Assembly (NCBI GenBank): GCA_964513435.1
Contig: CAZEMQ010000001.1
Span: 71,883-130,273, forward strand
Source of the DNA: an uncultured Muribaculaceae bacterium
GTDB taxonomy: Bacteria; Bacillota_I; Bacilli_A; RF39; UBA660
DNA: 58,391 nucleotides
Direction of reading: 5' to 3'
Shown here: positions 1 to 49,533 of the stretch, piece after piece
Numbering within the stretch: the stretch's first letter is position 1
How the letters are laid out: every line of letters begins with the position of its first letter
Position numbers and translations under genes: made by a program
Notes under the pieces: generated by a model
Seen by the model: the letters and a program-made list of their open reading frames with translations, nothing else
Told to the model about the DNA's origin: nothing
The model's database searches: none

Positions 1-212
1 TTAGATATTAAAGTACCATTATATTTATCTATATTTAATGTTTTCTTTAAATACGGCTCGGAATTTGCATTAGGTAATTCATCTAAATGTGGAAATCTAT
101 TGTATTTATCTAAGAAATTTCTACAAACCGCGTCTAATATAGTTTCCTAAATACCAGACTTATTTTTCAAAGTCTGATATTCAGGAAAATTTTTATTTAT
201 ACATGTTAACAT
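1..212 (-). CDS. hypothetical protein, 5' part only (continues past window start)
   Basis: ATG at 212-210 overlaps the TAA (208-206) of the upstream giant gene by 7 nt. The frame stays open to the window edge (MLTCINKNFPEYQTLKNKSGI-TAG-ETILDAVCRNF...) with one in-frame TAG. Confidence 0.5.
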
Positions 213-2284
213 GGATTCATTTTATTTTTAATAAGACAATCTAATAAATCCTTATCTACTTTCTTAATACCATTTTGTTTTATAGTAGGAATTTTCGATA
301 TTCCTAAATCTAACTTATTACTATCAACAGCCACATTCATTAATTGTCCGGAATCTATATCATATTCTATTCTTACAGCATATTGTTGATCACCATCCTA
401 CAAATTATAATTTATCGTTTTAGTAGGACTATCAATTCTTCCTGTTTGAAAGTAGTTAGTATCGACATCAGATATTTGAAATTCGTATTTACCTATAATG
501 TTTTGATTCTCATAATCATCATAAACATCATCTTCAAAATCCTATCTACTCAATTTTCTCATTAACTATACTTTTCTAGTTAATGGATTCCTATACCAAA
601 TGTTAGTAGAATAAGATTTATAAGGACTATCATACGGAGCTATATATGGAATAATTTCATCTAAGTCTATATTCTTTAAACTTATATCGGATTTATCAAT
701 AGCTGCTTCAAAATCATGAAAATTCTATATTTGTCCAGATGTCTAAAAATCTTCTAATATAGGAACTAATGATTTTTCATTTAATCTCCAACTATCTGCA
801 ATCATTCCGTAATAAGTAAATATATCAAGTAAAGGTATTGATGCTATACTATAATTCTATAAATTACCATCATTATTATAATTACTTACAGTATATTCAT
901 ACGAATATTTATTTAATTTATTAAATTCAGACTTATACGAATTAAGTAAAGCTCTTTCTGGATTTGTTCTAGGTAACATATTTATCGGAAGAGTATATAC
1001 AACAGTCGGATTTTTGGAAACAGTATTAGTAATTATATCATTATTTAAATCTCTTATAAATCTATTATCACTGATTGGATCAAACTATACATCTTGTTTA
1101 ATTTTACCCATTTTCAAATCTGGAATAATTGTATTTTCGACAAACATTCTAAATGTAGCATCACCCCAATCAGTTCCTAATTTAAAAGGAGTATCTTGTG
1201 TTAAATCATACTAGTTTCCATTATTATCAAATGCTTTATTGCCTTTTGGAATTATTACCTGTATGTTATTATGTCTCATCCAAGTTTTACGTAAATAATC
1301 ACCTACATACTTACTTATTCCATTAATTATTTTATTTTCATCTTTATAATTTATATCATTACTTAACTATAAAGATAAAGCTCGAATTGTTCTAAATTTA
1401 AAAGACTATTCTTCCTCTGCTAATGCTGTAGCTAGTGTTTGTACATATCCTAAATAATGAGAAACTGTAGAAATGACATCTAATACATTTACTGTATCTT
1501 TAACCTCTTCATATTTCTATACCATAGCTTCTCTATACTGTTGATTAAAAGCAAATCTTTTTAAATCTATTATATCAGCTTCATCCTTTGTTTTGTTATA
1601 AATAACTCTTTCTATATTATTAATTTGTCTAATAAATCCAGATAAATCTGTTTTTATTCCTTGATTTAGGCTTAGTATCTATCCTAATGTTCTAAATTCA
1701 GCTGCTCCATTTGCGAGAATTTTTAAATCATCCATAATTCCTTCATTCTTAGAAGCAAGATCTAAATTTTTAGTATATTCTTCTATAAAATCTATTAACT
1801 AGTTATATACTTCATTACCATAAACAGAATTACTTCTATATGCTTTTCTCAATTTTTCTAACGATTGTAATTTACTCTATAATGTGGCATTACTTTTTGC
1901 AAATATAGCTATCGCTTGATTAAATGGTAACTATTTTCCATCTTTATCTTTAATCCAATTTTCCTATTCTAAGAAACTTTGTCTAAAGAAATTTAATGGA
2001 GATATATCTAAACTATTTTTATCTAAATCTCTAGTAATATCAAATTTAGATAAAAACTTATTTGGAATTTTATCAAAATAATCAAATACTTGATCAATAG
2101 AACTATATGATTCAGTTTGTAAGAATACATTACTTTTTGTCAAAGAAGCTAACATTTTACCAACATCTGACATTAGTAATTTAGCTATATCTTCAAACTT
2201 CATTCCAATTGACAGTCCATATGTGTACATACTTATTGTACTTGCTGTTGCATTTAATTTGGATAACTATAATTCTTTAGCATT
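206..2284 (-). CDS. giant RNA-polymerase-like virion protein, exon 3 of 3
   Basis: Starts after the intron 3' splice site (..gacaaaattG|AATGCTAAAGAA). 2079 nt = 693 codons ending at TAA 208-206. In frame with track ORF 1964..2230. In the hand-checked lines (1801-1980) the only in-frame stops are TAG. Confidence 0.7.
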
Positions 2285-3770
2285 CAATTTTGTCTCTGAT
2301 ATATCGTTTCCACATATCATCTTTAGATTTCTCTAAAGTTCAGACTATATCATCTATGTAAAATATTTACACGCCTGGCACTTCGATTCTACTTAGAATC
2401 TACTCTACTAAGTTCTATTGTAAATAGCTTTTCGATAGTCGTTACTCTTTCCTCCTAATAGGAGACTTAGATCGGGATTATCCAATCTTTAATCTTATTA
2501 CCATACATGAGTAATTAGTTCATCCATATTTATATTACTATAAATACTTGGTAATTAAAGCTCTAAGGACTTTCCCCGAGTTCACCAGGTTTTATACCGA
2601 CTCTGCTTTTAAATCATTAATAAATTTAAGTTTATAATACATTGACGGGATTATATAAGGAAAAATTAATTTTTCAAAATCAAACCTAGATTTTTCAGAA
2701 ATATATATAACAAAATAATGTTTGTTCTTTTGTTTAGTACAAGATATATTCCATTTATCAAACATCCAATTAACTAAAAGATCTACTTCATTTTCTGTAA
2801 AACCATTAGTTGCTAGTGTACCACAATATGTTCCATCATCCATAAACCAAAACGCTAATGCTATTGGATTATTTATTTTACTTAAGAATTCAGATGTAAT
2901 AGTTTTAATTCCATTTGGATATAATAGATAATAAATATCATTAAATAGTTTATGAGATTTACTACTACCTCTCCATGTTTGATAAATTTTCCCAGTTCTT
3001 TTATCTGGAGATGGTGTATATAATTTATAATTTCCCATAAACTCTCCTAGAATTTTAACTTTTTCCATAAATAATTCTTCCTGTTTAATAGAATGTACAA
3101 TGCGTAAATTAGCATTCTTCATGGATTTAGTAAAATTAATCGAAGAATCTCCTAATAAACTTCCTAATATAAATTGTTCTTGTTCATTAGATAATTGTAT
3201 ATCTTTTTCTGAAAAATAATTATTTCTAGTAAATCGTCCTGCATTTTCTTCACGAGTTCTATAAGATTTTATTGTTGTTTCTTTAACTCCGAAAAAATTA
3301 GCTATCTCTAAATCAGATTTACCTTCATTCCAAAGTCTTTCAAAATCTTCCTGATTTATTTTCTTTTTCAAACGTTTTTCAATACCTAATTTACTAAGAT
3401 GATAACCTACAGTTCTTTCAGAAAGGTTTACTATTTTTCCTATTTCTTTACAAGTTTTTCCTTCTAGATATAAATTTTTTATTTGTTCTTTTTTACCTAA
3501 AAGTTTATCAACTTTTAATTTAGGTTCTTTATGACTTTTTCCTTTTTTTAATCCTAATTTTTGCAAACGTTTTGTAATAGTATTCCTATCACAATTCATT
3601 ATTTCTGCGATTTCTTTTATCTTTTTATTTTCATCAAGGTATAATTTTTTAATTTTGTTTTCATCAAGATTTAATTTACTCATAGCTATTATTTTAATTA
3701 TTATTCAATAATAGCATTTTTCTTAATGCTTTCAAAATAATTTCTCTTAAACTTTCATTTATACACGAAA
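2285..3770 (-). mobile_element. group I intron carrying a LAGLIDADG ORF in the P1 loop
   Basis: Minus-strand core elements: gtgaactcggggaaag (P3/P4-like), ggataatcccgatc, gtaacgactatcg (P7 5' strand), gatatagtctgaac (P7 3' strand, 2338-2351), then a P9 hairpin ctttagagaaatctaaag. P1: exon ACCGAU (3776-3771) pairs with IGS GUCGGU (2601-2596), ending in U.G. Removing the intron joins ..LSALLSLSTD|NAKELQLSKLNA.. in frame. Confidence 0.75.
2592..3683 (-). CDS. LAGLIDADG homing endonuclease with three N-terminal HTH repeats
   Basis: 363-aa intact ORF with no TAG. Two LAGLIDADG-type motifs (FILGSLLGDSSINF and LAFWFMDDGTY). Three repeated HTH modules at the N terminus (..IKEIAEIMNCDRNTITKRLQKLGL.., ..CKEIGKIVNLSERTVGYHLSKLGI.., ..LEIANFFGVKETTIKSY..). 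Lies inside intron 2285..3770. Confidence 0.85.
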   Translation of the reverse strand: MSKLNLDENKIKKLYLDENKKIKEIAEIMNCDRNTITKRLQKLGLKKGKSHKEPKLKVDKLLGKKEQIKNLYLEGKTCKEIGKIVNLSERTVGYHLSKLGIEKRLKKKINQEDFERLWNEGKSDLEIANFFGVKETTIKSYRTREENAGRFTRNNYFSEKDIQLSNEQEQFILGSLLGDSSINFTKSMKNANLRIVHSIKQEELFMEKVKILGEFMGNYKLYTPSPDKRTGKIYQTWRGSSKSHKLFNDIYYLLYPNGIKTITSEFLSKINNPIALAFWFMDDGTYCGTLATNGFTENEVDLLVNWMFDKWNISCTKQKNKHYFVIYISEKSRFDFEKLIFPYIIPSMYYKLKFINDLKAESV

Positions 3771-4748
3771 ATCGGTGCTTAAACTTAATAATGCTGATAG
3801 TATTATAGCAGCATCATAATCATTATCAACTTTTGCAAGAGCTATTAAAACATCATCGTTGATAATACTATTTATATTTTTAGTTCTAACGTTTGCTAAC
3901 AAGTTATACCTCTTACCAGAAATAAGTTTATTAAATAATAATCTTTTCTATTGTTCACGAGTACCATGATTCAGAATATAATTGTAATACTATGTTAGCG
4001 CAAAAAATGTCTTTAATCCAACTGCACATATTCCAATACACTATTTACCAACTTGATTATCATTAATAGATTGATTTTTATTTAAGAAATTACCAGAAGT
4101 TCTAGTCTTAATTTCCTCATTTTCTAAAGAACGATTTCCAACGTCTTTTAATGGTCCAGTTGTACCATCTACAGATGTCTACGCTTGTATTAAATTAACA
4201 GGATCAATTATACTATCGTACATTCCTTCCATAATCTAATTATTAATAATATGATTCAATTTATCTGAACCAACATTATCATAATATGAATTATGCTAAT
4301 TAATAATATCTCCTAACTTTTTAAACATTCTTTGAACTTGTTCTTCTGTTTCTAAATTAAATCCAGATATTCTACTAAATTCAGTTATTCGATTAAATTC
4401 AGAAATAAACTATCTAATAATACTTTGATCAGGAATAATTAAATTCTAGTATTCTTTTAATAACTAACCTAACGATTCTATATCAGATGCTCCATGTAAA
4501 TTTAATTCAACATTTACGTCATCTTCAGATTCGTCAAAATTAAATAAATAACCATATTTATTAAATATATCTAATACATCATTTAAATTATTAGATTCTA
4601 TAAGTTTTACATTCCTTCCAGTAGGAATTGGAAGTGTTTTAGATGCTAGTAATTTATCAACAGATGTTATATCAGCATAAGGAGACCAAAGTTGTAGTAA
4701 ACCATTCTTATCTATACTAAATGTAGCAAAATTTCCTGCGTCTATATC
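3771..4748 (-). CDS. giant RNA-polymerase-like virion protein, exon 2 of 3
   Basis: 978 nt = 326 codons, starting GAT ATA GAC GCA GGA (DIDAGNF..) and ending ..AGC ACC GAT. Open apart from TAG codons. Both ends are defined by P1/IGS pairings of the flanking introns. Confidence 0.75.
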
Positions 4749-5112
4749 CGTTTATACCCTAAATTTTCATTTAGGAACTGACTATATCTTCACATAATTA
4801 ATCACCAATTATGTGTCTCGCGCTTCCACTTAATAAGCGTACTCCTTTACAGGATAGTCGATGAACTTTTATCTTTATGCAATCATTTAAAATCGCACCT
4901 AAGATACTTAGCTGCGGATTGTCCAATTTCATACACTTTTTACTCTATCAACAGTAGTTAATTGTTGTCATTAGATATATTTCTATTCTAATTTAGTATG
5001 TATAAACTTAAGGAGTTTCCCGCAATTCACGAGATTTAACGACTACAATATTATTTTATTAAGCTATTATACTTAAAAGGTATAAATGTCACTCTATAAC
5101 GGTATAGAGTCA
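4749..5112 (-). mobile_element. group I intron, ORF-less (364 nt)
   Basis: P1: exon GACUAU (5118-5113) pairs perfectly with IGS GUAGUC (5046-5041), ending in U.G. Core: gtgaattgcgggaaactcc, ggacaatccgcagc, gttcatcgactatcc, gatatagtcag (4778-4788), P9 hairpin cctaaatgaaaatttagg, then omega-G at 4749. Without splicing, exon 1 runs into TGA three nt past the splice site. Confidence 0.8.
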
Positions 5113-8100
5113 ATAGTCTGAACCTTGTAACAGTATCTGATATGTAGATACATATGCGTTATTTATATCAGGATTGTCAAATGCAACGACTCTCATTGGC
5201 ATGTATGATTGCATAGACTGTGCTGGAATTCTAGCTGCAACTACATCTAACGATCTCAGAAAAGATGTATGTTTAGCTCTTCCCATCCTAATTATATAAT
5301 TATCTTCTGGTAATGTTTTATAATTATCTAAATTTATAGAATGAAATTCGTTGTTAGCATTTATAATATCTAAAGATTTTCTTCCATTTTTTGTTAAATA
5401 CCTTCCAAATCTCTTTGCTGTAGTATTACTTGATTTCTTTAAACTTGAAACTATCTATGTTAATAATGATGGACGTGTAACTAAATTATCAGATATTTTT
5501 ATGGTATCATATGATAAATTATTTATATAAAAATCAATATCGTCAGATACAATAACTTCATTACCTAAATTATCTGTGTAGATAGTAGTATCTGAAGTTA
5601 TTTCATACATATCATCCCCATTAGAATCCTATCTAAATATTCTTCCATCTTCATCTGTTCTATATATTATATTGTTTAACTTCTATAGATTAGAATTGGG
5701 TAAAAATCTAGTGTTAAGAAGATATATATGATTTCCATTAGATCTTTTAAATTCTATAGAATACTGATTTGGCTAAACTTTAGTTGATTGATTTAATAAA
5801 TACTATTTTATAAAGAAATCTTTATCATTCATAATAGTATGTAAATCGTCAAACTCCGTTAATCCAAATACAGTAGCAAATATTTTTGGAAGAATTACTT
5901 CATAAGCCTATCTAGATATAGAATTTCTATTTACGGAATAATATGTTCCATCAATTTTAACTTTATTAGTTCGATCTAATAATTCAATAACTTGTCCAAG
6001 TATGTTTATATAATTATTACCGTTTACAGTGATTCTTTCACCATTAAGAACAATTATATTTCCATCACTTCTACCTAATAGAATATTTACAACTGAAGCA
6101 AATTTATCAAACCACAATGGTGTATTCTCATAAGTATCAATAAAATCTCTTAGCTGCTATACTTTATCCTAGTACATTGGAGATAAATTGAACAAATCAC
6201 TCTACAACACACGTCTTATAAGTCGTTCTAATTGATTTATTACTTCTGGAACATTGTCAAGAGTTATTTCTGAAACAGTATCTGAATAATTTGAATACAG
6301 TTCATATAATCGCTGTATATTCTCTGGGATATTTTTCCAATTATCTCTTAGTTCAGTTAGTTCAAACAAATCCTACGCAGAATCTAAGTCCCATAATTGA
6401 AAATTACTACCATCTGTAGTAGAAAATCTAACATTATATCCAGCTAGATCTCTTCCTTCTTTTACATTTTCCACTACACTTATTACTATTCCATCCTATA
6501 TTTGTTTTTTCAAATTTTTATATTCCTGTGCAGTTCTTATAAGTACAGAATTAGTAACTGCTTCAAAAGTTAAATTGGTACTACCATCTTCTAATTCTTC
6601 ATTAACCGGAACCAAACTTGTAACATAATACGTCCTTCCTAGTTCTAGATTAGATATATTATTATCTAATCTTTTCAAAGCCATATCGTTTATACGGGTT
6701 TCATAATCAAAATCACTTTCATTTTCGAGCTAAGAGTATGTATTACGCATTGCTTCGTGCATCAATACAAAATGTTCCCATTCTTCATAAGATTTAAAAT
6801 CTCGATCTAAGGGCTTACTATTTCTCCAATTTTTCCATGTTTTTTCGTTAAACATCTAACGAAGTAATTCAGTATCAATTAATACTCTTCCGTCATAAGG
6901 ATTTTGTACTGCTACAGGTTGTTCATCAACAGTAGAAACTAACGAATTATAAGGAACACGTTCTATCTGCATTCCCATAAATTCCTACATATTAGGATTG
7001 TATAAAAATCCAGAATCATATATAGGAACTTGTTGTCTTTGAAGTTCTTCTAATTCTATTTCAGGATTAGTGAATGATTCTAATTTTCTATCCCCGTATA
7101 ATTTATATATATTATGTGATGGAGTAAGAACTGCAAGTAATCCAGAAACTTTCTATCTTATACCAGTTTTAGTTAAATAAGAAGTTATAGTAGATAAAAC
7201 TTTTGCATGAATAGTATTATCCGACAACGGCATCAATACTTTAGAATATTTTATTTCCTAACCTTCTCTAGCTTTTTTAATTAAGTCTCTAGCTATAATT
7301 TCTGCAAAATTGTTACTATTTGAAGTTTTATTTCCGAAAGCCTTTATAATAGACTTTACCATAACTTCCTATAGTTTATTAATAGACTATTCTGAACCAT
7401 CTGTAAATAATTCTTTTACAGCTTCAAAATGGTCTTTAGTATTTACTTCTGTTGCTTGTTTTAAAACATTGTATAAATCCATTGCAACGTCAACACTAAA
7501 TCCCCTAGATGCACAAGCAGATATTACCTAAGTCATTAGTGATACATCAGATTCATCAGCATGATGTTCTTTATCTAATTGAATTCCAGATTGATACATT
7601 GATATTTTTTGTATATCATAATCAACATTATCAAAGTATCTTTTAGCTGAATTCATATTAGCACCTCCTTGTTTGATAGCTCCAGCTGTAACCACATAAT
7701 GAACATCTGTGTGTTTTAATGGCTACCACAAATCATCCTAAGTTTCTACATTCTCATTAATTACATCACCTATACTATTCATTGCGATAACTACATTTTC
7801 TATAGAGGTATTTGAAAATTGTAATTTACCATTGACCATTTCCATAGAGTTCTATCCTCCGAATAGATTCCAAAGAGCGTAGTTAGTATTTATTGAGTGT
7901 TGTTCTGAAAATTCATTACCAATTGTATTTCCACTTATAGAAACTTCTTGTATTGCTACATTATATTCATTATTTCCTAAAGATGTTATATTATTTAATT
8001 TATAATATTTATCACCTCTTTTAAAATAAATATCATTGTAGACTATTTTATCGCCTTTGTAGTTAGTCGTTATATCTAATATGCTAGGAGATCCGTCTTG

Positions 8101-11100
8101 TCTTAACCATACATGATTTGTCATTTTTCTCATCATTGTTTGCATGAATTTTGAGTTTCTTATAGTATCATTAGTAAGACCAAAACCTGCGCATTTTATT
8201 ATTCCCGCTACTCCTAACTATTCTTCTTTAAAATGTACAAATAATTTCTTTGTTATACCAGCTCTCGCTCCTCCAAGAGAATTATTTTCTAATATTACAA
8301 TAAAAGGATTTACAAACACAGCTCCGTCAAACGGTTTTATAGACGAAACAGTACCATTTATCGTTCCTTGCTCATCTTTTATATCCTCTATTACCGCAAC
8401 ATTATAATCTTTGGGTATTCCTTTTAATAAATTTAATAAAAATGGATGCATTGCGGCGGTAAATGATACATTACGTTTATGCTAAGCATTAAATTGTGCT
8501 GCTTCTTGTACTAGTACATCATTAGAACCACTCTTCTAAGGATGTGCTACGAAAGAGCCAACAGTACTATTCATAAACTCCTATGTAAACAGATATTCTA
8601 ATGTGTTATACCATTCAAATAGAGGATTTAACTTTACATTAAGTTGATTTAATTCCGAATCAAGATCAATTCCATATTTTATTAAATCGTTTGTTGAGGT
8701 AATATTTATTCCTCGCACTTTTGCTAATATTACATCTCCAGAACTATTAATCCATTCTCTATAATTATCTCGAATATAACGTAATTCTGGCTACAATGTG
8801 TTAGAAGTGTTAATCCTAAATCCTTCTTTTAACATTGTTTTCAACAATTCTCTATTTTTAGCGTTCCAGAAATTTCCTTCTGATGGAAAATCAACTAAAA
8901 GTTCAGGATTATTAGCAAGAATAATACTATCTGGCTTAAATCTAGCAATCTAAGCTAGTATTACATCATTTGTTGCTAAATTTCCTTTATTACTTTTATA
9001 ATGTACTTGATCAACAATAGAAATAGGATTCAATCTATGTTGTTCATTATATTTACGAACAAAATATTTTATGAAATTGACAGGATTATCACCATACTAT
9101 GATAATCTAACTTGATTTATAAAAAACCATTCATTAAAGTTTACAAATCCATTTGTAAAATCGTTACCTAAACTTTTAACATCAGGAATGGTTTGAGATA
9201 TGTAGTTCTCTAATGTACGCCAATCGTTCGTAATCTAATTAGCCATATTTTCATAGAATTTCCCAAGTTCATTACTAATAAGAACTCTTAATTCAGGAAT
9301 GGATAAATCACGAACACGTTTAGTTATTTCATTACCGAGAGTTACCTCAGCATTTAAATTTATTACTATTTTCCCAATTGTACCTTTATCAGAATTAACA
9401 GATGGAAGAAATGCTACGATACCATTTCCAAATGGATATTTACCTTCTCTTTCTATTAATCCTCCTACAAAATCATATACTATTTCATAGTAAGTTAATT
9501 CTGAAGGAGTCATTGCTGTAATCTACTTAGAATTACCATTTGAATCGTAAAATTCTTTGGTTGTATATATTTCTTTTAATATTTCTGGATTTTGTAATAA
9601 TATAAAATGTCTAGACGCTGAATTTATTGACTTTTCTTGTAGTTCAAACTAACTTTGTACAGCTCCTAACAATCTACTTTGGGTCTACTAACTTTGTCCA
9701 TTACCTTCCCCATCTCTCACTATTGTAGAAGTAGTTACTCCTTGATAATTTGACTTTGCTATAGCGATGTTTCTCAAAGTTGGAATATCATTTCCATGAA
9801 CTAAGTTTAGTTCATCAAGAGCGTAATTATAACTAGGTGCATTTCTACCATATACGGATTTAATTATTCTATCTTTATCTATTGCATCACTAATTATTTC
9901 ATTAGAAACAAACTAGTTAAAGATTACTCTAGAAGCAAACTATAATAAACTTCTTGATAGGTTTGTTTTACCTTCAAATTGTTCAAACAAAGCATTACTA
10001 AAGTCAGAATCATTCTCTATTCCTAATCTTAAAATAGTATCTATGAATGGTAAAACTTCTTCATAAATTATACTATAACTAGTAGGAATACCTTCTACAG
10101 TAATATTTACATCACCGCTACCAGCAAATACTTGTACTGTTATGTTAGTATTAGGAATTGTAAAATATAGAGAACTTAACTTATGATTACTATCATACTA
10201 TGGATTTATATCTAATTCGTTTTTATAATCATCCCATGATTTTATTAGTCTTTTACTATTAGATGCATTTATTGTCTGTTCTATAGAACGTTGTACGTTA
10301 TTTACACTCTAATCTGTTAAAGTTCTTGTCTATACTAAACCATCTTGATCACGATAGTACTAAATATATTTTACATTAAATATAGAATCGGCAGTTTCAG
10401 CAATAAAACTGTAATAATCAGTATCAAAATCACCAGTAGTTAGATTATATAAACTATTAGATCCATTGAATATTCCGTATGATAAAGACCATAGTTTATT
10501 TAATTCGTTACTTGTAAAATTATCATATATTGTGTTATTATAAAGGTCTTTAAAATCAGAGTTAGTCAATATTTCAAACACCGAACTCAAATATTTTCTT
10601 GGATTTTCTCTAATTGTAGCAATAACATTTTTTAAAGATTTATTATATAATACGTCCTATGTTTTTTTACTTAAAGAATCCCATAAATCCTAATTATTAA
10701 AAATAAATTCATCGTTAAATATTATATTAGAAGTATTACTATTAAAAGCTAAATCTTTAATTTTAGCTATAATATGTTGAAAATCAGAAAAATGTAAAAG
10801 CTTTTCTCCTATTTGAGAATTACTATCCCATCTAAGTAAAGGTGTTGTATTTATTGCCAATCTTGTTATAGAATCAGCTTCTTCTTCAACATTTATATTT
10901 TCGTTAGTCCTCCAAGTAGTAGTAACTTTAGCTGTTTGAGCAGCTATTTGATATTTGTTTTCACCTGTTTTAATATTAAAATCTTTTATCTAAATACTTT
11001 TACCTAATAATAAAACAAGATAAGTGTCAAAATTATCAAGAATTACTCTTGCGTTATACGCTTCCAGTCTATTTCTAGCCTAAATTTTAGAATTATCATC

Positions 11101-11877
11101 TGACATATTACTATTCATAGTATTATATAACTATCTAAGCGTATCAGAATCAATTATATTTAAATAGTTATCCAATAATGGTTTTATTAGTTCCAATACT
11201 CCTGTATATTGATTATTTTCATTATACAATTGTGGATTCTTTAATGCTTCTCTGACATTATTGTCTATATGTAAATTAGGAGCTTGTCTTACTATCGACC
11301 AAATATAATTACAAATTTTACTAAGTAAATATTCTTGATAAATTCTAATATTTTGATTTAACTCAGAATTATTTCTAACAATACCTGTTTTAGCATTCTA
11401 TATAGATCCTCTATTTATAAATAAACAATCAAATAGATTTCTATTTGCCGTTCTAGTTGCAAATTCCTAAACTTCTTTAGCTAATCCATAAGCATTATCT
11501 AGAAAATCAGAATTTGCATCGGATCTTCTTCTAATTTGTTCAGGATTGAATATTCTATCATCACTAGTCTCTATAGAATCATTTATCTAAATATTCTTAA
11601 TGTTTGCAGTAATGTTATTAATAATATTTTCCGTAGATAAATAATCAGGAATTTGTGATGTTATACCATATCTAATTGCTGTACTATTTAATAACTATGC
11701 TACATCTACTATATTATTCTATACATCATATTTATCAGTGATTTCATTAAATAGATTCTTAACGTTAGCTTTTAGCATGGATGCAGACCAGTGGTCTTTA
11801 AGACTGCTCCTAAAGACCCTAGCTGCCATATTTTTAATCTATTTTAATGACTGATCGTCTATATTACATTTATTCAT
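5113..11877 (-). CDS. giant RNA-polymerase-like virion protein, exon 1 of 3 (spliced total 3,273 aa)
   Basis: ATG 11877. Six track ORFs (10360.., 9235.., 8218.., 7852.., 6496.., 5908..) all share its frame (offsets are multiples of 3). Hand-checked lines (5161-5520) contain only TAG as an in-frame stop. Ends ..QGSDY, which joins to DIDAG.. and gives DYDID, resembling the DxDxD metal-binding motif of crAss-type/QDE-1-like two-barrel RNA polymerases. The RNAP identity is an inference. Confidence 0.7.
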
Positions 11878-11878
11878 A

Positions 11879-14800
11879 TTAGAACTTTATTTTAATATTA
11901 ATTGGACAATTATCTGTTTGTTTCTAATCATCATGTGATCTCTCTATTTCAATCAATTGATTTATAATATTTCTTTGGAAATCAGTAAGATTATTATTTA
12001 ACATACTCTGTAAATCGGTTATTCTATCTTCACCTATATAATCCATATTATTCAATTTCTCTAAAAATTCATCGAGAGTATTGCTTTTAAAAAGATCTTC
12101 ATAATCAAGATCATAACTGAATAATTCTTCTAACGCTTCTCTTGCAGAATTCATGTATTCATCAAAATTATTCTCATTTACTATTAAAGCGACAGGTTCT
12201 GATATAGATTCGTCATTAGAAATCATTGTTAATTCTGAATTTTTAGAATCATATTCAGCATTATAAGATACACCGTCTATTTCAAGATTAAACTAAAATA
12301 CTCCATTATTATCAGATAAGGAAGAAATATCTGTTATGTTTCTATTATTAAATATAATATTTATACGTCCTTTCAAAGCATCGTTTCTTTTACTTATAAC
12401 AACATTACCGTTTATAATAAATGCGATATTATCAGAATTTTGATTTATTGTTTGAACGGCTAATTCATTAGCTTTATTTATTGACTAATTTTCATATAAA
12501 TTACTTAGATCTAATCCTGTTTTCTATTTTATTTCAGATAATATATTATTTTTAGTTATTTCTTCCTATGATATTTGTGTATCTAAGTCAGATCTTCCAT
12601 TTCTCATATATTTATAACCGTCAATGACAGTAAATGAAAATCGACCATCTGCACTTTGTCGTAAACTACCTAAAAACTGATTAACTAACCACGATATGTT
12701 ACCTCTAAATACATACGAATCAATTTTTCCATGAATTTTAAATGGTTTATTATCTATACTATAGTTATTACCCTATTCTATAACATAAAATTGACCTATT
12801 TTCTATGGATTATTTCTAGGTATATAAGAATCGTATCTAACTCCATCTATTCCAGATCGTAACAATATAGATTTGATCATATCTAATCCAGATTGATTAA
12901 AAGTATATAAAACTTCCCCATCAATTAAAGCGTTAAGTGTATTTCTATTATACACCACAGACATTAATATTCCATCAAACAAACCTGATAAACTTCTAGG
13001 TTTAGATGAAATTTCATTCCAAACTGCAGTTTCGTATAGTTTATTTTTCTTAGAAATATTATCCGGAAGAGAATCTATTTCCTAAATAGCTTGATCTATC
13101 TTAGCTACTATATTAGGCATTCTCTAACTCAAATACTATCTAAATGAATTATCCTTCATAAGCTCTTTCATTAACTTATATGAGGTAAATAACGTTCCTA
13201 TACGTTTCACATTACCCTATTTACTAAATATATTTTTTATATTTTCAATATATTTATCAATAGATGCTTTAGGAGGCATAACATACATTAATTGCACTTT
13301 CTTAGGAGTATCTGGATCAGTAGATTGTTTAATAAAGTATTTAATTATTTTTAAATCCGAGTTTAATGATTTATCAAAAGAAACAAGAACAAAAGGATTT
13401 CCAGCTTTTACTAACTTTACAGAAGTACCATCTCCACCATCAACTTCTCCATTTAAAGATACCATTACTTTACTAGTAATAGTTACTTGAGGATTTGTAG
13501 CAAACTGTGATACTGTAGTCCATTCTGATTCAGGATTACCATTATCATAATGAAATCCCGGAGATCCTTGATAATATCCTCTATTTGTAACAAATTGTGG
13601 ACCTAATGATTCAAGATCTTTTGCTATAGTCCAATTAGGATCGTGTACAAAATGAATACCTCTGAATGTAAAATCATATAATTTAAACAGATTAATTAAA
13701 TCTTGATATTGTACATTTCCATCAAATTTTTCAATCAATTTTAATGTAATATCGTGTTCAGACATATTATCTGATTGTAATCGTAGATATTCATCATAAA
13801 CTTCTTGAAATACCTTTTTACCATTTCCATCGCTTATCTACATTAATGTAAAAGGGGAAGATGTTGCAAGTAGTGGTATTTCTAATAGGTCGCCATTCTA
13901 TTTTGTTCCAATTATTGCTACTAATGACTTGTGATGCCATTCTTTACTACGAGTATCAGAAGACCCGTTATATTCTGTAGTTTCAGAAATTCCTTTACTA
14001 AAACGACTTACTGTACCCTCTACAAACTCCTAATTATTCTATTTATTACGATCACTAGGTCTAGGAGAGCTTTTTAAAGCAAAAGTAATATAAACTCCTT
14101 TTAATTTCAAATAATTAGAAACTCTATCTATTAACGTCGACTTATCTTTAATGTTGAATAATAAACTTCTTATATTACCTAACTGTTCTAAATATAACTA
14201 TTTTGTTTTTATTCCTTTACTCTATAATAAATCTATTTTAACTAATCCATTAATGCTATCTATTCTTGGATTATCTTCCCAATTTGTTGTTCCATTGGGA
14301 ATTGGATTGCCATTATCATCAAATAAAACACCCGTTTCAAACGTATTAAATGAGTGTAATAACATATTGATCCCTATAGTCTCTTGTTCTATAACTGGGT
14401 TAACATAAGACTAAGGAAGAGTAAGATCTTCAGAAGATAAATCAAGCTCTCCTGAATATTCTAGATCACCAGTAGTATCATTATCTGTTATAGGTGCAAG
14501 ATTACCACCATAATCATATCCATCTGGCTCAGTTTCATTTTCATATTCCTAAATAACTTCTACTATACCATTAATATCGCTTCTTTGATACTGTTTAATC
14601 TCAAATCCATAATTGTTAGTTGTATCAAATGTATTAATAAGTAACACATGATATTGATGATTTCCATCCTATGATAGCTTTATTCCTACAATTACACCAT
14701 ACTAATTATCATTAAGTCTAATTATAGTACCATATTTCAAGTCAGAATTGATATCGTTTGAATCCAGTCCTTCATCTGTTTTTGGACTCTATATTGCTAT

Positions 14801-17800
14801 TTTTCTTGCAGCTTCGGCTGCTGGTTTATTAGTGATATTATCATAAGAAATAATTTCTAATGGAGTAGATTGTATAATTTCTGCTATTTTCCTTTGTTTA
14901 GCTTCTAAGATTTCCTTATCTGGATTATTTATTTGTTCTGACCTAATAAATTCATTTATAAGATTATCAATATCTTGTATAGAAGTAGCTTTATTTATCG
15001 AATCAATCAATATCTGTTTTCTACTATCAAATGTACTTGTTTTCTCAGGTGGTGTTGGATCGGTTCCTTCACTTAATCCTTCTTTTTTTACAATAGATGA
15101 TTTTACTGATATACCTGTCTATGTTCTAGGAGTATAAGGTATAGCTTTTCCATCATTAGCAATTTTATCTAATATTTCTTTTCTTGCTTCAGAATACTAG
15201 ATAATAGAATCTCTATTTATTTGTTCACTAACATTACTATGAACTCTAACAGATCCAAATTTAGGACCAATATCAACAGGAATAATTACTATAGAACCTT
15301 GCTGTGCTCTAGTCATTCCTGTATATATATCTTTTAGATATATATCTAAAGCATTCTGTTTAGTATTACTATCAGAATCAACAAGTTTAGCATTTGGCTA
15401 TGCTTCGATTATATAATATTGACCCTCATCTCCATGAGAACTTCCTCCTTCTTTGAAATCAATATATTTAGAATACTTCTCAGAAGATAATTCCTTGAAT
15501 AAAGGTGATGTTTTATCAGAATAAATATAACCTATTTTCTATCCTTCTTTTAAAGTATCAATTAATTTATCAACTTTTTCTAATACAGACTAAACAATAC
15601 TAGCTTTTGCTGTAGTTACTTTATCCTAAGAAACGGTATCATCTTGTATCTCATAAATAACCACTTGATCTCCGTATAATCCAGAATCATCCTCATAATA
15701 CTCAAAATCTATCCTCTAATCTGTTGGGCTTTGCATATAAGCCTATAATTTTTCCTAATTTCTAGTTTTAATTACATTATCAGTTCTCATTGAAACTGAC
15801 AATTTTGGAGATCTAGCAAAATTAGTTCTTTCTAAGTTAACGCTCCAATTAAGAGGTTTAGATGATTTTAATTCTATACTATGTGCCCCGACTATACCAG
15901 CTTGATCAAAGTCTCCAGCTACTAATACAGTAATACCATTTTCTTTAGCGAAATTATTAATCTAATCCATATCGTATGAAGTGAATTTCTATACTTCGTC
16001 TATTATTATAAGACTAGGTGGATTAGACATTTTTTTAACAGATTGTGATGAAACTACTTCGTTCTAATCAGATACTGTAAAATCTGATTTAGGAATAATG
16101 TAATATCCAGTAATAGGATCTATAGAATATTCTGTCCACTGTGGATTTATTTCTTTCATCCAACCTTGTCTATCATACGATTTAGCATTCTAATCAGTTA
16201 AACCAACATCTTTTAATAATTTCTAAGCATTAGAAAATCCAGAACCGTGTACTACAGAAACAGATTTTAATAAAGATGGATTAAATTTCTGTAACATTTT
16301 TAATGTTACTTTGAATACAGCTTGACTTTTTCCTGCTCCTGGAATTCCTTCCGTTAAAGTTGTATTAGAATATCTTGGAACAGTTACTATATTTAACACA
16401 TAATCGGCAAATTCATCAGATGCCATTCTTGTATCTCTATTTAAAGATCGTAGAATAGTCTCTCTTTCCTGAACTGTTTTATTTTTCCAATCATTTACTA
16501 CCGATCGTCTGTATGCTTCAAAGAATTGTGTAAATATATTTCCATTTAAGATACTAGCATAATTATTATATACAGCAAGTTCTTGTGAAAATATAGGCAT
16601 TATTGGATTTTCCGAATTTAACTCTATAATCTATTTATATTGATTATAAAAATCAGATGATTTTATAGCAGCTCTAGATGCCAACCACCATAATATAGTA
16701 TTATCATCTAATGAAGTAGATCCTTCATTCAATAAACCGTTAGCTAAAGTATATAATTGTAATCTTTTTGGATTTATAAATTCTTGTAATTTATTTATGT
16801 CGTTTAATTTATCCAAATTCTTCTGGAAGAAATCATATATAGCGTCACCTAATTCAATACTTTCTCTTTCAAAGTCTTCTTTCTAACTTTCAGAGACTTC
16901 TTTAGAATCAGATTTAGATATTTTATCATGTAACTATAATCCATTAACTATAGTTTGTAGTTCTAATATTCCATTCCAAGATTTCAATTCATCGTCATCT
17001 CGAATTTGTACAATATTTCTAATTCTATTATATATCAAAAGATCTGTTGTAGTAGCTATTCTATTCTATTTTAATATTTTCTATCCTTGATTTATTCTAT
17101 ATAAATTTCTAAGAAAGACTAACCTATTAAGATTTAAATTAATATCAGATAGTATAGTATCGGCTGTATCTTTATTTATTTCTGCCAATTTAGGACGTTT
17201 ATCTTCTAGTTTTTCAGAAATTTCATTTAATGTAGCATTATATCCATAATAATCATCAATGTCAGCAGAATCAGTTCTTGCAGCTAATACAGCTGCTTTA
17301 TACATTTGTAATGTAAATATAGCATTGTTGAGGTCTGATACTAACTATTCACCTATATTAAATTTAGAAATATTATCAGATACATCTTTAAAATAAGTAT
17401 CTAATCTATTTATCAATTGAGTGATATTTATAGGATCTTGACCTGTAGATATAGATATTTCATCAATGTCCTAAGCGAATAAAGTATTATCTAACTTTTC
17501 TACTTTATCACGTAAATTTACAAAAGTATCTATTTTTTCCTACCAATACATCATAGGTTCACTAGGCTCAAACTGCATTTCTGGGAGTTTTCGTTCTTCA
17601 TTAGCATATTCTGCCTAAGATATAGCGATAAGATTATTCAGTACTCTTGTAATTTGATTTTTTGTTTCTGTATTAATAAAACCTCTATTTACAATAGGAT
17701 CTATATATTTAGAAATATCTCTAATTAATACATTAGAAATCGCAGCTTTATAATTATAATTTAAATCCTTAAGTTTAGCTTCTTTTTCATCTTTAGATAA

Positions 17801-20800
17801 GTTTGGGTCTAATTCTGCTATCTGCTTTTCAATATTTTCTATCTCAGACATATCAGATTCAGTTCCAAATGCTTCCACTAGAGCTCTTTTCAAAGATACA
17901 ATATTATCAATAGTAGTAGCTTCATTTAACCACATATTTATTACTTCAGGAGCTGCGTTTTTAGCAATATTAAAACTAGTAGATAAATTTGTAATTATAG
18001 AAGATAACTTCTTACTATCTTCTAAATTATCTAAATATCGCTTATCTATTTTTTGCAAAACTCCTGTTAATTTCTATGCGAACTATCTAAACGTAGCAGA
18101 TACTTCACGTATTTTATCTCTTCCATCAGAAACTTTCCAATTATTATATGCTTCCTATGCAGCAGCCTTATCTTTTTCTGTTAATTCAGACCATTTCTTT
18201 CCAAAATGTTTTTCTGCAAACAACGGAAGAGTTGTTTCTGTAAATAATCCACTAAGAGTTTCTGTCATTTCAAATAAAGCATCTGCGACAAACTCATAAG
18301 AATATTTACCATCAATTAAATCCTATAACTCTTTTCTTTTATTATTTAGTTCTTTTACAACTTTGTCATACTATTTTTTATCATCTTCGGAAAGTTTATT
18401 TCTTCGAGCTTCTAAATCAGTAACAACCCCATCGTTGTTTGTATCTTGTGCTTTATCAAGTATTAAATTGGAATTATTTGTTAATCTTATTACTTCTGAA
18501 ATTAAATTATTAAATCTATTTAAATAAGCTCCTGCCATAGTCGATTTATGTAATACAGCAAAACGTAAATCTCCTAATGTTTGCTTATTTAAAAAAGAAT
18601 CATCAGATAAATTTGCTCCATTAGCATCCAATATATTCTGAATTAACTGGACTTGTGCTTTAATTGCTCGTTTAGCGTATAAATCTTGATTATTTTCTTT
18701 AGTCCCAGGAGCAAATATAAGTTGTCCATCTTGTTCCTATACTTCTGTAGCTGATAAATATGGATTTCCTATTTCTACTTTGTCTAAAGACTTTAGAAAA
18801 TTATTACCTTCTCCATTTCTAAGTAAATAGACTAACTATTCAACAGCTTGTTGAGAAGTCATATTACTTAACGAATTAAACGCTTTATAATTAAGACCAA
18901 GATTTGCTAATCCACCACCAATCGCACCACCTATCAATGACATTCCATATCTATCAATAATATCAGAAGTGTTCCATTCCCCTGTTAAAGGATCGTATCC
19001 AAATGATGTCATTCTAGCGTCACTACCTGATAACCACTAAGATAAATTAAAACATGCCTTTGAAAAGTCAGCAAGTATTTCTTCACTAACTTCTTCAAAA
19101 CCTTCTCCAACACCTGCTGCAAGAGTTGCTTTCATCGTCTTAGCTCCAGTAGCATATTCTGCATTAGCGATACTCTTTCCAACTTTAAATAATTCTTTAG
19201 CATATTGTTTTTTACCCTCTTTAGGAAGAGTTTTCAACATATTACCAAACTGCTATCTAAGTTGTATTGTTTCTTCATTTAAATTCATTAATGCTCTCTG
19301 AATAGCTTGATACCTATATCTATTAGCTCTTAGCTCAGGAAGAACCCATTCACCTAGACCAGTATTTAATAAAGCGTATTCTCCAGCAGCGTATCCTAAA
19401 GTTAGTAATGCAGCGTCCATATCAGAAGCACCTGCCTATTTAGCTTCTCCATAAGTGTCGCCTACTACAATGGCAGTCATGTACCCTTTGCTTAATATTT
19501 CTCCTAATTTATTATATCCTTTTATGAAAGAATCTAACTACGATTGAGCATTAAAAGTATCGCTTATATTTAAGCTCTATTTTAATCTAGTTAATTTAGC
19601 AGCCTCTGAAGGATTCTTTAATAGTTCTTCTATTTTAAGTTGATTAAATTTTTTATTTGCGTTCTGTAGTTCGGCTAGTTTTGCAGCTTGTCCTTCTTTA
19701 GTCATTAAATTAGAACCTGTGACTAAATAAGGAAGTTTTTCAAATATAAACCTTTGTTCAGCAAGCTAACCCATTACATCACCAATAAGATTTATAAAAT
19801 TTTCCCAACACCACGTATGTTCTTGTGCATATTGTGTTCTTGCTGTCTATCTATTAAATGATTTGGATAAACCTTCAATTTCATTTAATATAGGCATATC
19901 GTCACCAGCAAGCATTTTCATAAATGTTGCTCCTACACCAGCAAGTTGTGTAGCAATACTTAATCCTCTTACCCAAGGACCTATTCCAGAAACAAACATT
20001 GTTCCAACTAAAGCTGCATTTTTTAATACATTTGCTACAGGATTCTACTAATTTAAGTCATCACTATCAAAAAAATCAAATTTATTCCAGAAAGACCCAT
20101 CTGTGGTAAGAACATTCATTTTATTTAGAACGCTTCTTCCGTATACATCACGTCCGTCTAATTTCTCATAAAAGAAATTTCCTTCGTTGTCTAATTTAAG
20201 ATCACCTTTCTTGTGTTCGACAGTTTGATTAGTAATTGGATCTATGTGAGTTCCGTCAGAATCGTATTGAGCTAATACTAAAGTATCTAAAAGATGTCCA
20301 AAAAAAGAATCATTAGGAGAATCTTCCCATATAGCATTTTCTAAATTATCCCCAGCTGTAGTTGGATTAGCAAGTACTTTATTTGATTGTGCAAGTTCAT
20401 CTATAGATTTTGTAGGTTCATCTACTTTTCCAAATGTAACCAAGTTAAATGTCTATTGATAAGGATTAGACATTTTAAACTATTGAAAATCTGGTTCAGT
20501 ACGTTTCTATTTCTATGGAGCAAAAATATTACTTCTATGATATGATGTAATATTTTTTACAGAATCATTGTAGTTTGTATCTGCTAGATTGTTATAGTAA
20601 ATAGTAGCTACATCATACGCCTTATTAAAAGAATCTTCATTAAAGTTTCCAAACTAATCACTAAATTGTTTTCTCACCCATTCATCATTTTTATATTTTT
20701 CTTTATTTTGAATAGAAGTATTTTTAGCATTTAGTCCGTTTATAATCATAGTATCGAAAGATGCTTGAGGGTTATCAAGCATCTCTAAAAATAAATCATG

Positions 20801-20815
20801 TTCTCTATTTTCCAT
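11879..20815 (-). CDS. giant virion protein (2,978 aa) with an embedded SF1/RecD-like P-loop NTPase module
   Basis: ATG 20815 to TAA 11881-11879 = 8937 nt. Ten track ORFs (20048.., 19037.., 18371.., 17615.., 17081.., 16631.., 16223.., 14789.., 13217.., 11924..) are all in one frame. A hand scan of 13766-14791 found 11 in-frame TAG and 0 TAA/TGA. Motifs: GIPGAGKS (16348-16325), LIIIDEV (about 16015-15995), VLVAGDFDQ (15928-15902). Confidence 0.8.
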
Positions 20816-46215: not shown

Positions 46216-46433
46216 ATCTATATTTAAACTATACTTAATATCTATACTTAAACGCTTCGCGAATCAAAAAATTTTAAATAAGGATATTGGACACTCGTGG
46301 AGATATTATATTTATTCAATCTCTATGCGTTACACTACTTAAATACCTTTCGCAATTATTTAAGTTAGCACGGTATTTTCATTTCAGAATCCACCGTTTT
46401 TTGCCCAATTCATTAATAACATTACTGTTATTA

Positions 46434-49462: not shown

Positions 49463-49533
49463 AGGTCTTCCAGTATCAGGATCACTTATTGTGCTCTTTC
49501 CATTGACATCCACCGAGCCTTTATTGAGCAGTA
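49463..49533 (-). CDS. putative major capsid protein, exon 9
   Basis: Follows ..gattaatatattG|TA CTG CTC. 71 nt. Its first 2 nt complete the codon started by the last T of exon 8. Reads LLLNKGSVDVNGKSTISDPDTGRP. Confidence 0.55.

What the first reader, a model, noticed from the sequence alone, without database searches (positions are those of the whole stretch)
4749..5112. An intron splits the candidate catalytic DxDxD motif of the giant RNA-polymerase-like protein
Exon 1 ends ..CAA GGT TCA GAC TAT and exon 2 begins GAT ATA GAC GCA GGA. After splicing the protein reads QGS-DYDID-AGNF. The 5' splice site has a perfect 6-bp P1 (GACUAU/GUAGUC). The 3' site follows a P9 hairpin and an omega-G. 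The junction is in phase 0. A D-x-D-x-D loop is the metal-binding signature of two-barrel RNA polymerases, including the virion RNAP described for crAss-like phages and the QDE-1-type DYDGD. The unspliced message stops 3 nt into the intron, so no active-site-containing protein can be made without splicing. Insertion at the most conserved codons is the classic footprint of homing. Here it also supports the functional assignment of a protein of more than 3,200 aa.
Basis: partly seen in the sequence, partly recalled or inferred. Interest (0 to 1): 0.7.

Follow-up and report, generated by a model that had tools for sequence, protein, structure and literature searches.

The report
Self-splicing intron splits phage RNA-polymerase active site
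A 364-base self-splicing (group I) intron sits exactly inside the codons for the metal-binding Asp-x-Asp-x-Asp loop of a giant gut-phage RNA polymerase, which explains a gene disruption that earlier work on these phages had left unexplained, but it is a new example of a known phenomenon.

Summary
Window 5112..4749 (minus strand) is a group I intron: Rfam RF00028 scores 80.1 bits, E 1e-20. The exon sequence GACUAU pairs with the internal guide GUAGUC, ending in a U·G pair. The intron ends in G, and a 5-bp P10 helix aligns the 3' exon. Intron-less homologues align without a gap across 5113|4748, and 97 of 120 homologue clusters carry a contiguous QGSD[YFM]D[VI]D. In 19 introns at this site, P1 pairs 6/6 and changes together with the Tyr/Phe codon.

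With TAG read as Gln and a second intron (3770..2285) removed, the product is exactly 3,273 aa. DYDID (aa 2254-2258) aligns with the experimentally essential 1361-DFDID-1365 of the crAss-like phage phi14:2 RNA polymerase gp66 (PDB 6VR4). hhalign gives 91-95% probability, and 6VR4 is the top hit in a search of the whole PDB (E 0.014). Structure prediction failed for the catalytic core, so there is no fold-level confirmation.

Relatives carry the same intron with a LAGLIDADG homing endonuclease; the window's copy has no ORF.

Yutin et al. 2021 reported the DxDxD motif disrupted in Zeta-group RNA polymerase genes and proposed unknown expression mechanisms. This intron supplies an ordinary one. 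It is a new member of a known kind, of moderate interest.

The parts
5113..11877 (-). Exon 1 of the giant RNA-polymerase gene (aa 1-2255). It ends ...QGSDY, where D2254 = GAC 5118..5116 and Y2255 = TAT 5115..5113. The last six bases, GACUAU, form the 5' strand of P1.
   Evidence: The frame is open only if TAG is read through. It is colinear with P0005 aa 1-2248. The database protein P0001 equals this exon alone.
4749..5112 (-). Group I intron 1: 364 nt with no ORF. It starts with an in-frame TGA (5112..5110) and ends with the terminal G at 4749.
   Evidence: RF00028 scores 80.1 bits, E 1.1e-20. The minimum-free-energy fold recovers P3, P4, P6, P7.1, P8 and P9, with z = -4.4. Homologous introns occupy the same site in 18 other loci.
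5041..5052 (-). Internal guide sequence. AAUAUU (5052..5047) pairs with the 3' exon GAUAU to form P10. GUAGUC (5046..5041) pairs with the 5' exon GACUAU to form P1, ending in U·G. It lies 66 nt into the intron, directly 5' of P3.
   Evidence: P1 pairs 6/6 in 19 of 19 introns at this site. Exon TAT goes with GUAGUC, and exon TTT with GAAGUC or GGAGUC. P10 is 84.7% paired, with two pairs changed on both sides, and 0 of 500 shuffles reach the observed covariation score.
3771..4748 (-). Exon 2 (aa 2256-2581). It begins DIDAGNF (GAT ATA GAC at 4748..4740) and ends ...LSLSTD.
   Evidence: Colinear with P0005 aa 2249-2584. Junction sequences are shown.
2285..3770 (-). Group I intron 2 (1,486 nt). It carries a 363-aa HTH + LAGLIDADG homing-endonuclease ORF (3683..2592) in the P1 loop. 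Its guide GUCGGU pairs with exon ACCGAU. It splits the invariant LSLATD|NAKEL block.
   Evidence: The core 2621..2321 matches RF00028 at 37.5 bits, E 3.3e-8, below the gathering score. The ORF matches phrog_11023 (LAGLIDADG homing endonuclease), E 1.4e-12. Junctions were set by homologue alignment. Six homologue clusters end at the same site.
206..2284 (-). Exon 3 (aa 2582-3273) plus the stop codon at 208..206.
   Evidence: Colinear with P0005 aa 2585-3272. The assembled coding sequence gives 3,273 aa with a single terminal stop.

Best explanation
The window comes from a large, TAG-recoded gut phage with the traits of the Zeta group of crAss-like phages. Its 3,273-aa homologue of the crAss-like phage RNA polymerase gp66 is encoded in three exons.

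The first interruption (5112..4749) is a group I ribozyme without an ORF, inserted in phase 0 between codons 2 and 3 of the catalytic GSD-Y|D-I-D loop.

Inferred mechanism, from the standard group I pathway:
1. The exon end GACUAU pairs with the guide GUAGUC to form P1, with U·G at the cleavage site.
2. A free guanosine attacks after U5113.
3. The adjacent guide bases AAUAUU hold the 3' exon GAUAU in P10.
4. The freed exon 1 attacks after the terminal G at 4749.
5. The ligated message reads ...QGS-DYDID-AGNF.

Without splicing, translation ends at the TGA that opens the intron. That gives a 2,255-aa product with only one of the three metal-binding aspartates. A second intron must also be removed.

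The intron descends from a mobile element. Relatives carry the same ribozyme at the same site with a 234-aa LAGLIDADG endonuclease in a peripheral loop. The window's copy has lost the endonuclease and part of P6, and it persists because it still splices.

Shown here: ribozyme identity, junctions, covariation of the guide with the exons, restoration of the motif, and homology of the motif to gp66 DFDID. Inferred: actual splicing, endonuclease loss by deletion, RNA polymerase activity and virion packaging.
For: Ribozyme: the Rfam match is 80.1 bits, and the fold z-score is -4.4 with the core helices recovered.

Junction: the tblastn alignment of intron-less homologues breaks exactly at 5113|4748. 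97 of 120 homologue clusters have a contiguous QGSD[YFM]D[VI]D, and 20 of the other 23 end exactly at QGSD[YF] (18) or read a few residues further into the intron (2).

Guide sequence: P1 pairs 6/6 in 19 of 19 introns, with a compensatory change tied to the Tyr/Phe codon. P10 also covaries, and 0 of 500 shuffles reach the observed score. In L011 and L015 the P1 loop is only 10 nt, which is a textbook P1 hairpin.

Mobility: LAGLIDADG_2 ORFs lie inside the same intron in L001, L002, L004 and L005. The window's intron is 88-90% identical in nucleotides to the L001 intron, while the flanking exons are 59-75% identical.

RNA polymerase: hhalign gives 94.6% and 90.7% probability. 6VR4 is the top PDB hit, E 0.014. 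GSD[FY]D[IV]D is conserved in 32 of the 37 gp66-family proteins recovered, with GGDYDID in one more. Whole-length hhalign gives weak matches in the same order along both proteins. gp66 DFDID is catalytic (bioRxiv 10.1101/2020.03.07.982082).

Context: Zeta-group traits are described in PMC7886860. Homologue contigs are 165-178 kb, and TAG is recoded.
Against: - There are no RNA or protein data, so splicing is inferred.
- The P1 loop of the window's copy is long (66 nt, two hairpins). That is unusual, though both hairpins covary among relatives.
- Rfam aligned the first hairpin as P1, which cannot be right given the reading frame.
- Whole-window Rfam scans did not report the intron.
- Homology to gp66 is remote. 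Single-sequence and whole-length profile searches of the PDB found nothing, and the PDB-wide E-value of 0.014 is borderline.
- Both AlphaFold models had pLDDT below 50 across the catalytic blocks, and Foldseek gave no significant hit.
Confidence: 0.87

Rival explanations
1. The gene is expressed in pieces, or through an unknown non-splicing mechanism such as ribosomal bypassing, separate polypeptides that assemble, or RNA editing. Yutin et al. 2021 suggested something of this kind for disrupted Zeta-group RNA polymerase ORFs.
For: PMC7886860 proposes 'additional, yet unknown expression mechanisms' for these genes. Gene callers report exon 1 as a stand-alone 2,255-aa protein (P0001).
Against: The interruption is a full-scoring group I ribozyme whose guide sequence covaries with both exons. 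Exon 2 has no start codon near its 5' end: the first in-frame ATG is at 4328, 140 codons downstream. Separate pieces would split the aspartate triad 1+2 across two chains. A 364-nt gap is far longer than the known bypass of about 50 nt in T4 gene 60 (my own knowledge).
Confidence: 0.03
2. The intron is a decayed, non-splicing relic, and the polymerase gene is a pseudogene in this phage.
For: The copy has lost its endonuclease ORF and a P6 extension that relatives retain. No expression data exist.
Against: All 3,273 codons across the three exons are free of TAA and TGA. P1 and P10 match this phage's own exon sequence. The Rfam score equals that of the other full-scoring group I intron in the window, at 49545..49817 (80.1 against 80.7 bits). 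All invariant catalytic residues are retained.
Confidence: 0.05
3. The intron is real, but the protein is not an RNA polymerase, or DYDID is not its metal-binding loop. In that case the D-x-D-x-D is a chance motif in a structural giant protein.
For: No Pfam, PHROG or single-sequence PDB match was found. The fold of the core could not be predicted. Two other D-x-D-x-D strings occur in exons 1-2 (DFDTD and DNDYD; exon 3 was not scanned).
Against: Only this motif is invariant across the family. It sits within RIPxQ...GSD[FY]D[IV]D, the same block and spacing as in gp66. hhalign gives 91-95% probability, and 6VR4 is the best hit in the PDB. Isoleucine or valine at position 4 is the crAss-specific signature (bioRxiv 10.1101/2020.03.07.982082). 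Further blocks match in the same order, including the bridge-helix and trigger-loop region.
Confidence: 0.05

Closest known systems
Group I introns with homing endonucleases in phage genes (T4 td, nrdB and nrdD; Bacillus phage SPO1 DNA polymerase; Bacillus phage AR9 RNA polymerase subunit gene), recalled from my own knowledge. AR9 is cited as reference 28 in PMC7886860.
   Same: It is a self-splicing group I ribozyme inserted in phase at highly conserved catalytic codons of an essential enzyme. It has extra hairpins between P7 and P3', as in subgroup IA. It is present in some related phages and absent in others. Relatives carry an endonuclease ORF in a peripheral loop.
   Different: The host gene is a single-chain, two-barrel crAss-type RNA polymerase. 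The window's copy has no ORF. There is no P2, and the guide sequence abuts P3 behind a P1 loop that varies from 10 to 67 nt. In intron 2 and in the L006 intron that loop holds the whole endonuclease gene.
Disrupted RNAPB' DxDxD motif in Zeta-group crAss-like phages (Yutin et al. 2021, PMC7886860)
   Same: The same kind of phage (large genome, TAG recoding, many introns) and the same observation: the polymerase ORF breaks inside DxDxD. LAGLIDADG 'intron-encoded endonuclease maturase' domains are drawn in the transcription gene block.
   Different: That study found introns through their protein domains. It left the breaks within motifs unexplained and proposed 'yet unknown expression mechanisms'. 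Here the break is resolved to the base as a group I intron without an ORF, with guide-sequence covariation and a predicted spliced product.
phi14:2 gp66 virion RNA polymerase (PDB 6VR4) and Neurospora QDE-1
   Same: It shares the GSD[FY]D[IV]D catalytic loop preceded by RIPxQ. Blocks matching the gp66 bridge helix and trigger loop follow in the same order. It is a single giant polypeptide in a block of giant genes.
   Different: It is about 1,100 aa longer than gp66, and sequence identity is detectable only around the catalytic blocks. gp66 has no introns. Similarity to QDE-1 was not tested here.

Membership tests
Group I intron (Rfam RF00028) | Covariance-model match above the curated gathering score | tested here: met
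   80.1 bits against 50, E 1.1e-20, full model 1-253, at 5116..4758. Whole-window scans did not report it.
Group I intron (Rfam RF00028) | P1 helix between the 5' exon end and an internal guide sequence, with U·G at the splice site | tested here: met
   GACUAU pairs with GUAGUC. P1 is 100% paired in 12 distinct sequences and has a compensatory AU to UA/UG change.
Group I intron (Rfam RF00028) | Terminal G at the 3' splice site and P10 pairing with the 3' exon | tested here: met
   All 19 introns at this site end in G. P10 is 84.7% paired, with two pairs changed on both sides.
Group I intron (Rfam RF00028) | Removal restores a continuous, conserved reading frame | tested here: met
   The tblastn alignment breaks exactly at 5113|4748. 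97 of 120 homologue clusters have the motif uninterrupted.
Group I intron (Rfam RF00028) | Guanosine-dependent self-splicing | not testable with these tools
   This needs an in vitro transcript with GTP and Mg2+, or RNA from infected cells.
Mobile (homing) group I intron | Homing-endonuclease gene encoded within the intron | tested here: not met
   The window's intron 1 holds no ORF. The same intron in L001, L002, L004 and L005 holds a 234-aa LAGLIDADG_2 ORF. The window's copy is best described as an endonuclease-less derivative.
Mobile (homing) group I intron | Present in some homologous genes and absent in others, at one site | tested here: met
   20 homologue clusters end at QGSD[YF] (18 exactly, 2 reading a few residues further into the intron), 3 end two codons upstream, and 97 are uninterrupted. 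There are 13 further cases in IMG/VR contigs.
crAss-like phage single-chain RNA polymerase (gp66 / 6VR4 type) | Catalytic DxDxD loop with Ile or Val at position 4, in the GSD[FY]D[IV]D context | tested here: met
   The window has QGSDYDID. The gp66 family has GSD[FY]D[IV]D in 32 of the 37 proteins recovered, with GGDYDID in one more. Ile/Val at position 4 is described as crAss-specific in bioRxiv 10.1101/2020.03.07.982082.
crAss-like phage single-chain RNA polymerase (gp66 / 6VR4 type) | Profile-level homology to gp66 around the catalytic loop | tested here: met
   hhalign gives 94.6% and 90.7%, E 1.2e-6, against the full-length gp66 family profile. 6VR4 is the top hit of the PDB, E 0.014.
crAss-like phage single-chain RNA polymerase (gp66 / 6VR4 type) | Second double-psi beta-barrel, bridge helix and trigger loop in the same order | tested here: inconclusive
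   Weak matches fall in the same order: 1097-1278 with 856-1011 (E 0.12), 1521-1581 with 1176-1237 (E 0.39), and 2420-2618 with 1473-1649 (E 0.003).
crAss-like phage single-chain RNA polymerase (gp66 / 6VR4 type) | Two-barrel fold | tested here: inconclusive
   The AlphaFold2 models have pLDDT below 50 over both catalytic blocks. Foldseek found nothing with E <= 0.001.
crAss-like phage single-chain RNA polymerase (gp66 / 6VR4 type) | Mg2+-dependent RNA synthesis and packaging in the virion | not testable with these tools
   Biochemistry and virion proteomics are needed.
Zeta group of crAss-like phages (Yutin 2021) | 145-192 kb genome, stop-codon reassignment, very high intron density, polymerase ORF broken at DxDxD | tested here: met
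   TAG is recoded. The window holds at least five group I matches. Homologue contigs are 165-178 kb. Placement by TerL or capsid-protein phylogeny was not done.

The most novel reading that the evidence does not exclude
Small group I introns without ORFs, invisible to searches based on protein domains and even to filtered Rfam scans, may be the whole explanation for the 'unknown expression mechanisms' proposed for Zeta-group RNA polymerase genes. The catalytic centre of this polymerase would then be a target shared by several intron lineages. At least two unrelated introns hit the DxDxD codons, at D[YF]|D and at QGS|D. A third splits the counterpart of the gp66 trigger loop. Production of any active polymerase would then depend on two or more ribozymes, which might also act as a timing or host-state checkpoint.
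Probability: 0.4. Interest if true: 0.55.

Novelty: new member of a known kind. Interest (0 to 1): 0.42.

Why it matters
The result turns an annotation puzzle into a base-exact gene model. The polymerase of an abundant but uncultured gut-phage group can now be written as one 3,273-aa protein, and the catalytic assignment gains independent support. It shows that introns without ORFs are missed both by domain-based intron searches and by default Rfam filters in AT-rich phage DNA, so intron loads in these genomes are probably undercounted. The covarying guide and exon sequences give a simple rule for finding and splicing the same intron in other genomes. It does not reveal a new mechanism.

Tried and rejected
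- Single-sequence phmmer and a whole-length family profile against the PDB gave only chance hits.
- PHROGs and Pfam found nothing for the polymerase.
- tblastn against 50,697 phage records gave only two short matches, both in unannotated records.
- hhalign of the whole-length family against the single gp66 sequence found nothing.
One covered 1,089 aa spanning both conserved blocks, the other 650 aa from the motif to the trigger-loop region. Both gave pLDDT of 25-45 over the catalytic blocks, and Foldseek against the PDB gave nothing with E <= 0.001.
- Cluster look-up for source names returned none.
- The paper search failed on all four attempts, so work later than 2021 could not be surveyed.
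- An alternative junction (5112|4747, giving DYYID) was rejected. It lacks U·G in P1, and homologues have D at that position.
- An intein was rejected because the insert has in-frame stops and matches the ribozyme model.
- Rfam's own P1 assignment (the first intron hairpin) was rejected because it would place TGA in the exon.

Full report
**Genetic code and gene model**

The window is 28.7% G+C. Under the standard bacterial code it has almost no long ORFs. If TAG is read through, a series of very long minus-strand ORFs appears, while TAA and TGA remain stops.

One frame runs 11877..5113, a second 4748..3771 and a third 2284..209. tblastn with TAG as Gln shows that the intron-less homologues P0005 (3,272 aa) and P0004 (3,307 aa) align in the same order over the three pieces. 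The breaks fall exactly at 5113|4748 and 3771|2284. Joining the three pieces gives 3,273 codons, 77 of them TAG, with a single terminal stop. DYDID is aa 2254-2258.

**Is the interruption a group I intron?**

The sequence reads ...CAA GGT TCA GAC TAT | TGA CUC ... AAACG | GAT ATA GAC GCA GGA. Searched alone, 5116..4758 matches Rfam RF00028 over the whole model at 80.1 bits (gathering score 50), E 1.1e-20. Both whole-window scans missed it, probably because of the speed filters in this AT-rich DNA. The minimum-free-energy fold recovers P3, P4, P6, the extra hairpin after P7, P8 and P9, with z = -4.4.

GUAGUC at 5046..5041 pairs 6/6 with the exon end GACUAU, with U·G at the splice site. The six bases just 5' of it (AAUAUU) pair with the first five bases of exon 2, forming P10. 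The last intron base is G.

**Comparative test of the junctions**

Of the 120 homologue clusters listed, 97 carry a contiguous QGSD[YFM]D[VI]D. The other 23 are truncated: 20 stop at QGSD[YF] (18 exactly, 2 reading a few residues further into the intron) and 3 stop two codons earlier.

I fetched DNA for six of the truncated clusters and found 13 more cases in IMG/VR contigs by searching for a conserved core string. That makes 19 introns at the D[YF]|D site, counting the window.

- All 19 have 6/6 P1 pairs and end in G.
- Where the exon codon is TAT, the guide is GUAGUC. Where it is TTT, the guide is GAAGUC or GGAGUC.
- P10 follows the D-I or D-V codons of exon 2.
- In the formal count over 12 distinct sequences, P1 is 100% paired and P10 84.7% paired. 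Three pairs change on both sides, and 0 of 500 shuffles reach the observed covariation score. Shifted registers pair in 25-58% of cells.
- The P1 loop ranges from 10 nt (L011 and L015, an ordinary P1 hairpin) to 66-67 nt (the window, L001-L003 and L005).
- Rfam aligned the first loop hairpin as P1. This is wrong, because it would put TGA inside the exon.

**Mobility**

In L001, L002, L004 and L005 the same intron is about 1,100 nt and holds a 234-aa LAGLIDADG_2 ORF. The ORF lies between the hairpin after P7 and the 3' strand of P3. The copies in the window (364 nt), L003 (404 nt) and L027 (300 nt) have no ORF.

The window's ribozyme is 88-90% identical in nucleotides to that of L001, whereas the flanking, highly conserved exons are 59-75% identical. 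This fits a mobile element that has lost its endonuclease here. Strong structural constraint on the ribozyme could contribute to the same pattern.

L006 carries a different intron two codons upstream, at QGS|DFDVD. Its guide GGAACC pairs with exon GGUUCU, and a 303-aa LAGLIDADG ORF sits in the P1 loop. The motif is therefore targeted by at least two intron lineages.

**Is DYDID the catalytic loop?**

Direct searches found nothing in the PDB, PHROGs or Pfam.

I took gp66 of Cellulophaga phage phi14:2 from GenBank KC821624 and confirmed that it is the protein of PDB entry 6VR4. I then collected its family. Of the 37 proteins recovered, 32 have GSD[FY]D[IV]D and one more has GGDYDID.

- Comparing motif-centred regions of the two families with hhalign gives 94.6% probability, E 6.4e-8.
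- A 142-column profile of this family plus the more divergent IMG/VR lineages, compared with the full-length gp66 family profile, gives 90.7% probability, E 1.2e-6. It aligns RIPAQSMQS...GSDYDID with RIPNQGQSS...GSDFDID at gp66 1314-1379. In those IMG/VR lineages exon 2 begins DIDK[AV]Y[IV]MG, close to gp66 DFDIDKMYVM.
- The same profile searched against all 177,635 distinct PDB sequences returns 6VR4 as the best hit, E 0.014, at that motif.
- An HMM of the whole protein picks the same block in most gp66-family members.
- Whole-length hhalign gives weak hits in the same order along both proteins.

In gp66, 1361-DFDID-1365 is the Mg2+-binding motif, each D-to-A change abolishes RNA synthesis, and Ile or Val at position 4 is the crAss-phage signature (bioRxiv 10.1101/2020.03.07.982082).

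Fold-level confirmation failed. Two AlphaFold2 models were confident only in peripheral domains, and Foldseek found nothing significant.

**The second intron**

Intron 2 (3770..2285) splits the invariant LSLATD|NAKEL block. Its 3' core matches RF00028 at 37.5 bits, E 3.3e-8. GUCGGU next to P3 pairs with exon ACCGAU. Its 363-aa ORF is an HTH + LAGLIDADG endonuclease. The best whole-length hhalign segment (E 0.003) aligns the junction D2581|N2582 with gp66 D1612|N1613. That position lies inside the gp66 trigger loop, residues 1598-1636. Six homologue clusters are interrupted at the same place.

**Context and novelty**

Several traits match the Zeta group of crAss-like phages described by Yutin et al. 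2021 (PMC7886860):
- TAG recoding;
- at least five group I matches in 58 kb;
- many endonuclease genes;
- homologues on human-gut contigs of 165-178 kb.

[quoted passage not shown] It suggests "additional, yet unknown expression mechanisms", and its introns were found through endonuclease domains.

The present case shows that at least this disruption is an ordinary group I intron without an ORF, which that method could not see. The phenomenon of a self-splicing intron in catalytic codons of a phage enzyme is well known. This is therefore a new member of a known kind that clears up a specific open point.

I could not survey the literature after 2021, because the paper search failed each time.

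Noticed in passing
whole window, e.g. 11877..206 (-): TAG is used as a sense codon: there are 77 in-frame TAGs in this one gene, and all long ORFs need TAG read-through. TAA and TGA remain stops. No tRNA gene, and so no suppressor tRNA, lies in the window.
   Followed up: partly
window 3770..2285 (-): A second group I intron (1,486 nt) in the same gene. An HTH + LAGLIDADG endonuclease ORF (3683..2592, no TAG codons) sits in its P1 loop. It splits LSLATD|NAKEL, which aligns with D1612|N1613 in the gp66 trigger loop.
   Followed up: partly
window 4749..5112 compared with whole-window scans: The 80-bit Rfam match to intron 1 is not reported when the whole 58-kb window is scanned, either at the gathering threshold or at E <= 0.01. 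It appears only when about 700 nt are searched alone. Intron counts from routine scans of such AT-rich phage genomes are probably too low.
   Followed up: yes
window ~46400..57200 (-): Six ORFs of about 300-365 aa begin MKYIVY..TN..N.KIYIGVH; the one scanned matched homing-endonuclease families (GIY-YIG-like by the motif, not tested). There is also a LAGLIDADG ORF (56385..55696) and three group I matches (49817..49545 at 80.7 bits, 49402..49261, 47922..47785). They lie between short open segments of an unidentified host gene, which appears to be split into many small exons.
   Followed up: partly
L006:10231-11532: A different group I intron (1,302 nt, 303-aa LAGLIDADG ORF in the P1 loop, guide GGAACC) is inserted two codons upstream, at QGS|DFDVD. 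The homologue clusters P0103, P0114 and P0120 end at this site.
   Followed up: partly
window 5112..5041 (-), and L010-L027: This intron family has no P2. The guide sequence sits directly 5' of P3, and the P1 loop is the variable region: 10 to 67 nt, two covarying hairpins in the window, and whole endonuclease genes in intron 2 and in L006.
   Followed up: partly
L010, L011, L014, L015, L017, L027 (IMG/VR contigs of 78-175 kb): More divergent polymerase lineages carry the same intron at the same site. Their exon 2 starts DIDK[AV]Y[IV]MG, closer to gp66 DFDIDKMYVM. They serve as bridging sequences between the Zeta-type protein and gp66.
   Followed up: partly
homologue P0008 aa ~2225-2335 (window exon 2, roughly 4530..4200): In the second AlphaFold model, the confidently folded domain about 70-180 aa after the motif drew several LAGLIDADG endonuclease structures among the weak Foldseek hits (I-CeuI, I-CreI, I-OnuI and others; E 2-10, not significant).
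   Followed up: no
window 20815..11879 (-): The upstream neighbour is another giant gene (2,978 aa) whose stop overlaps the start of the polymerase gene. Its counterparts in related loci show a weak AAA_30 hit. Further giant genes follow up to about 37.9 kb, resembling the crAss 'transcription / virion protein' block.
   Followed up: no
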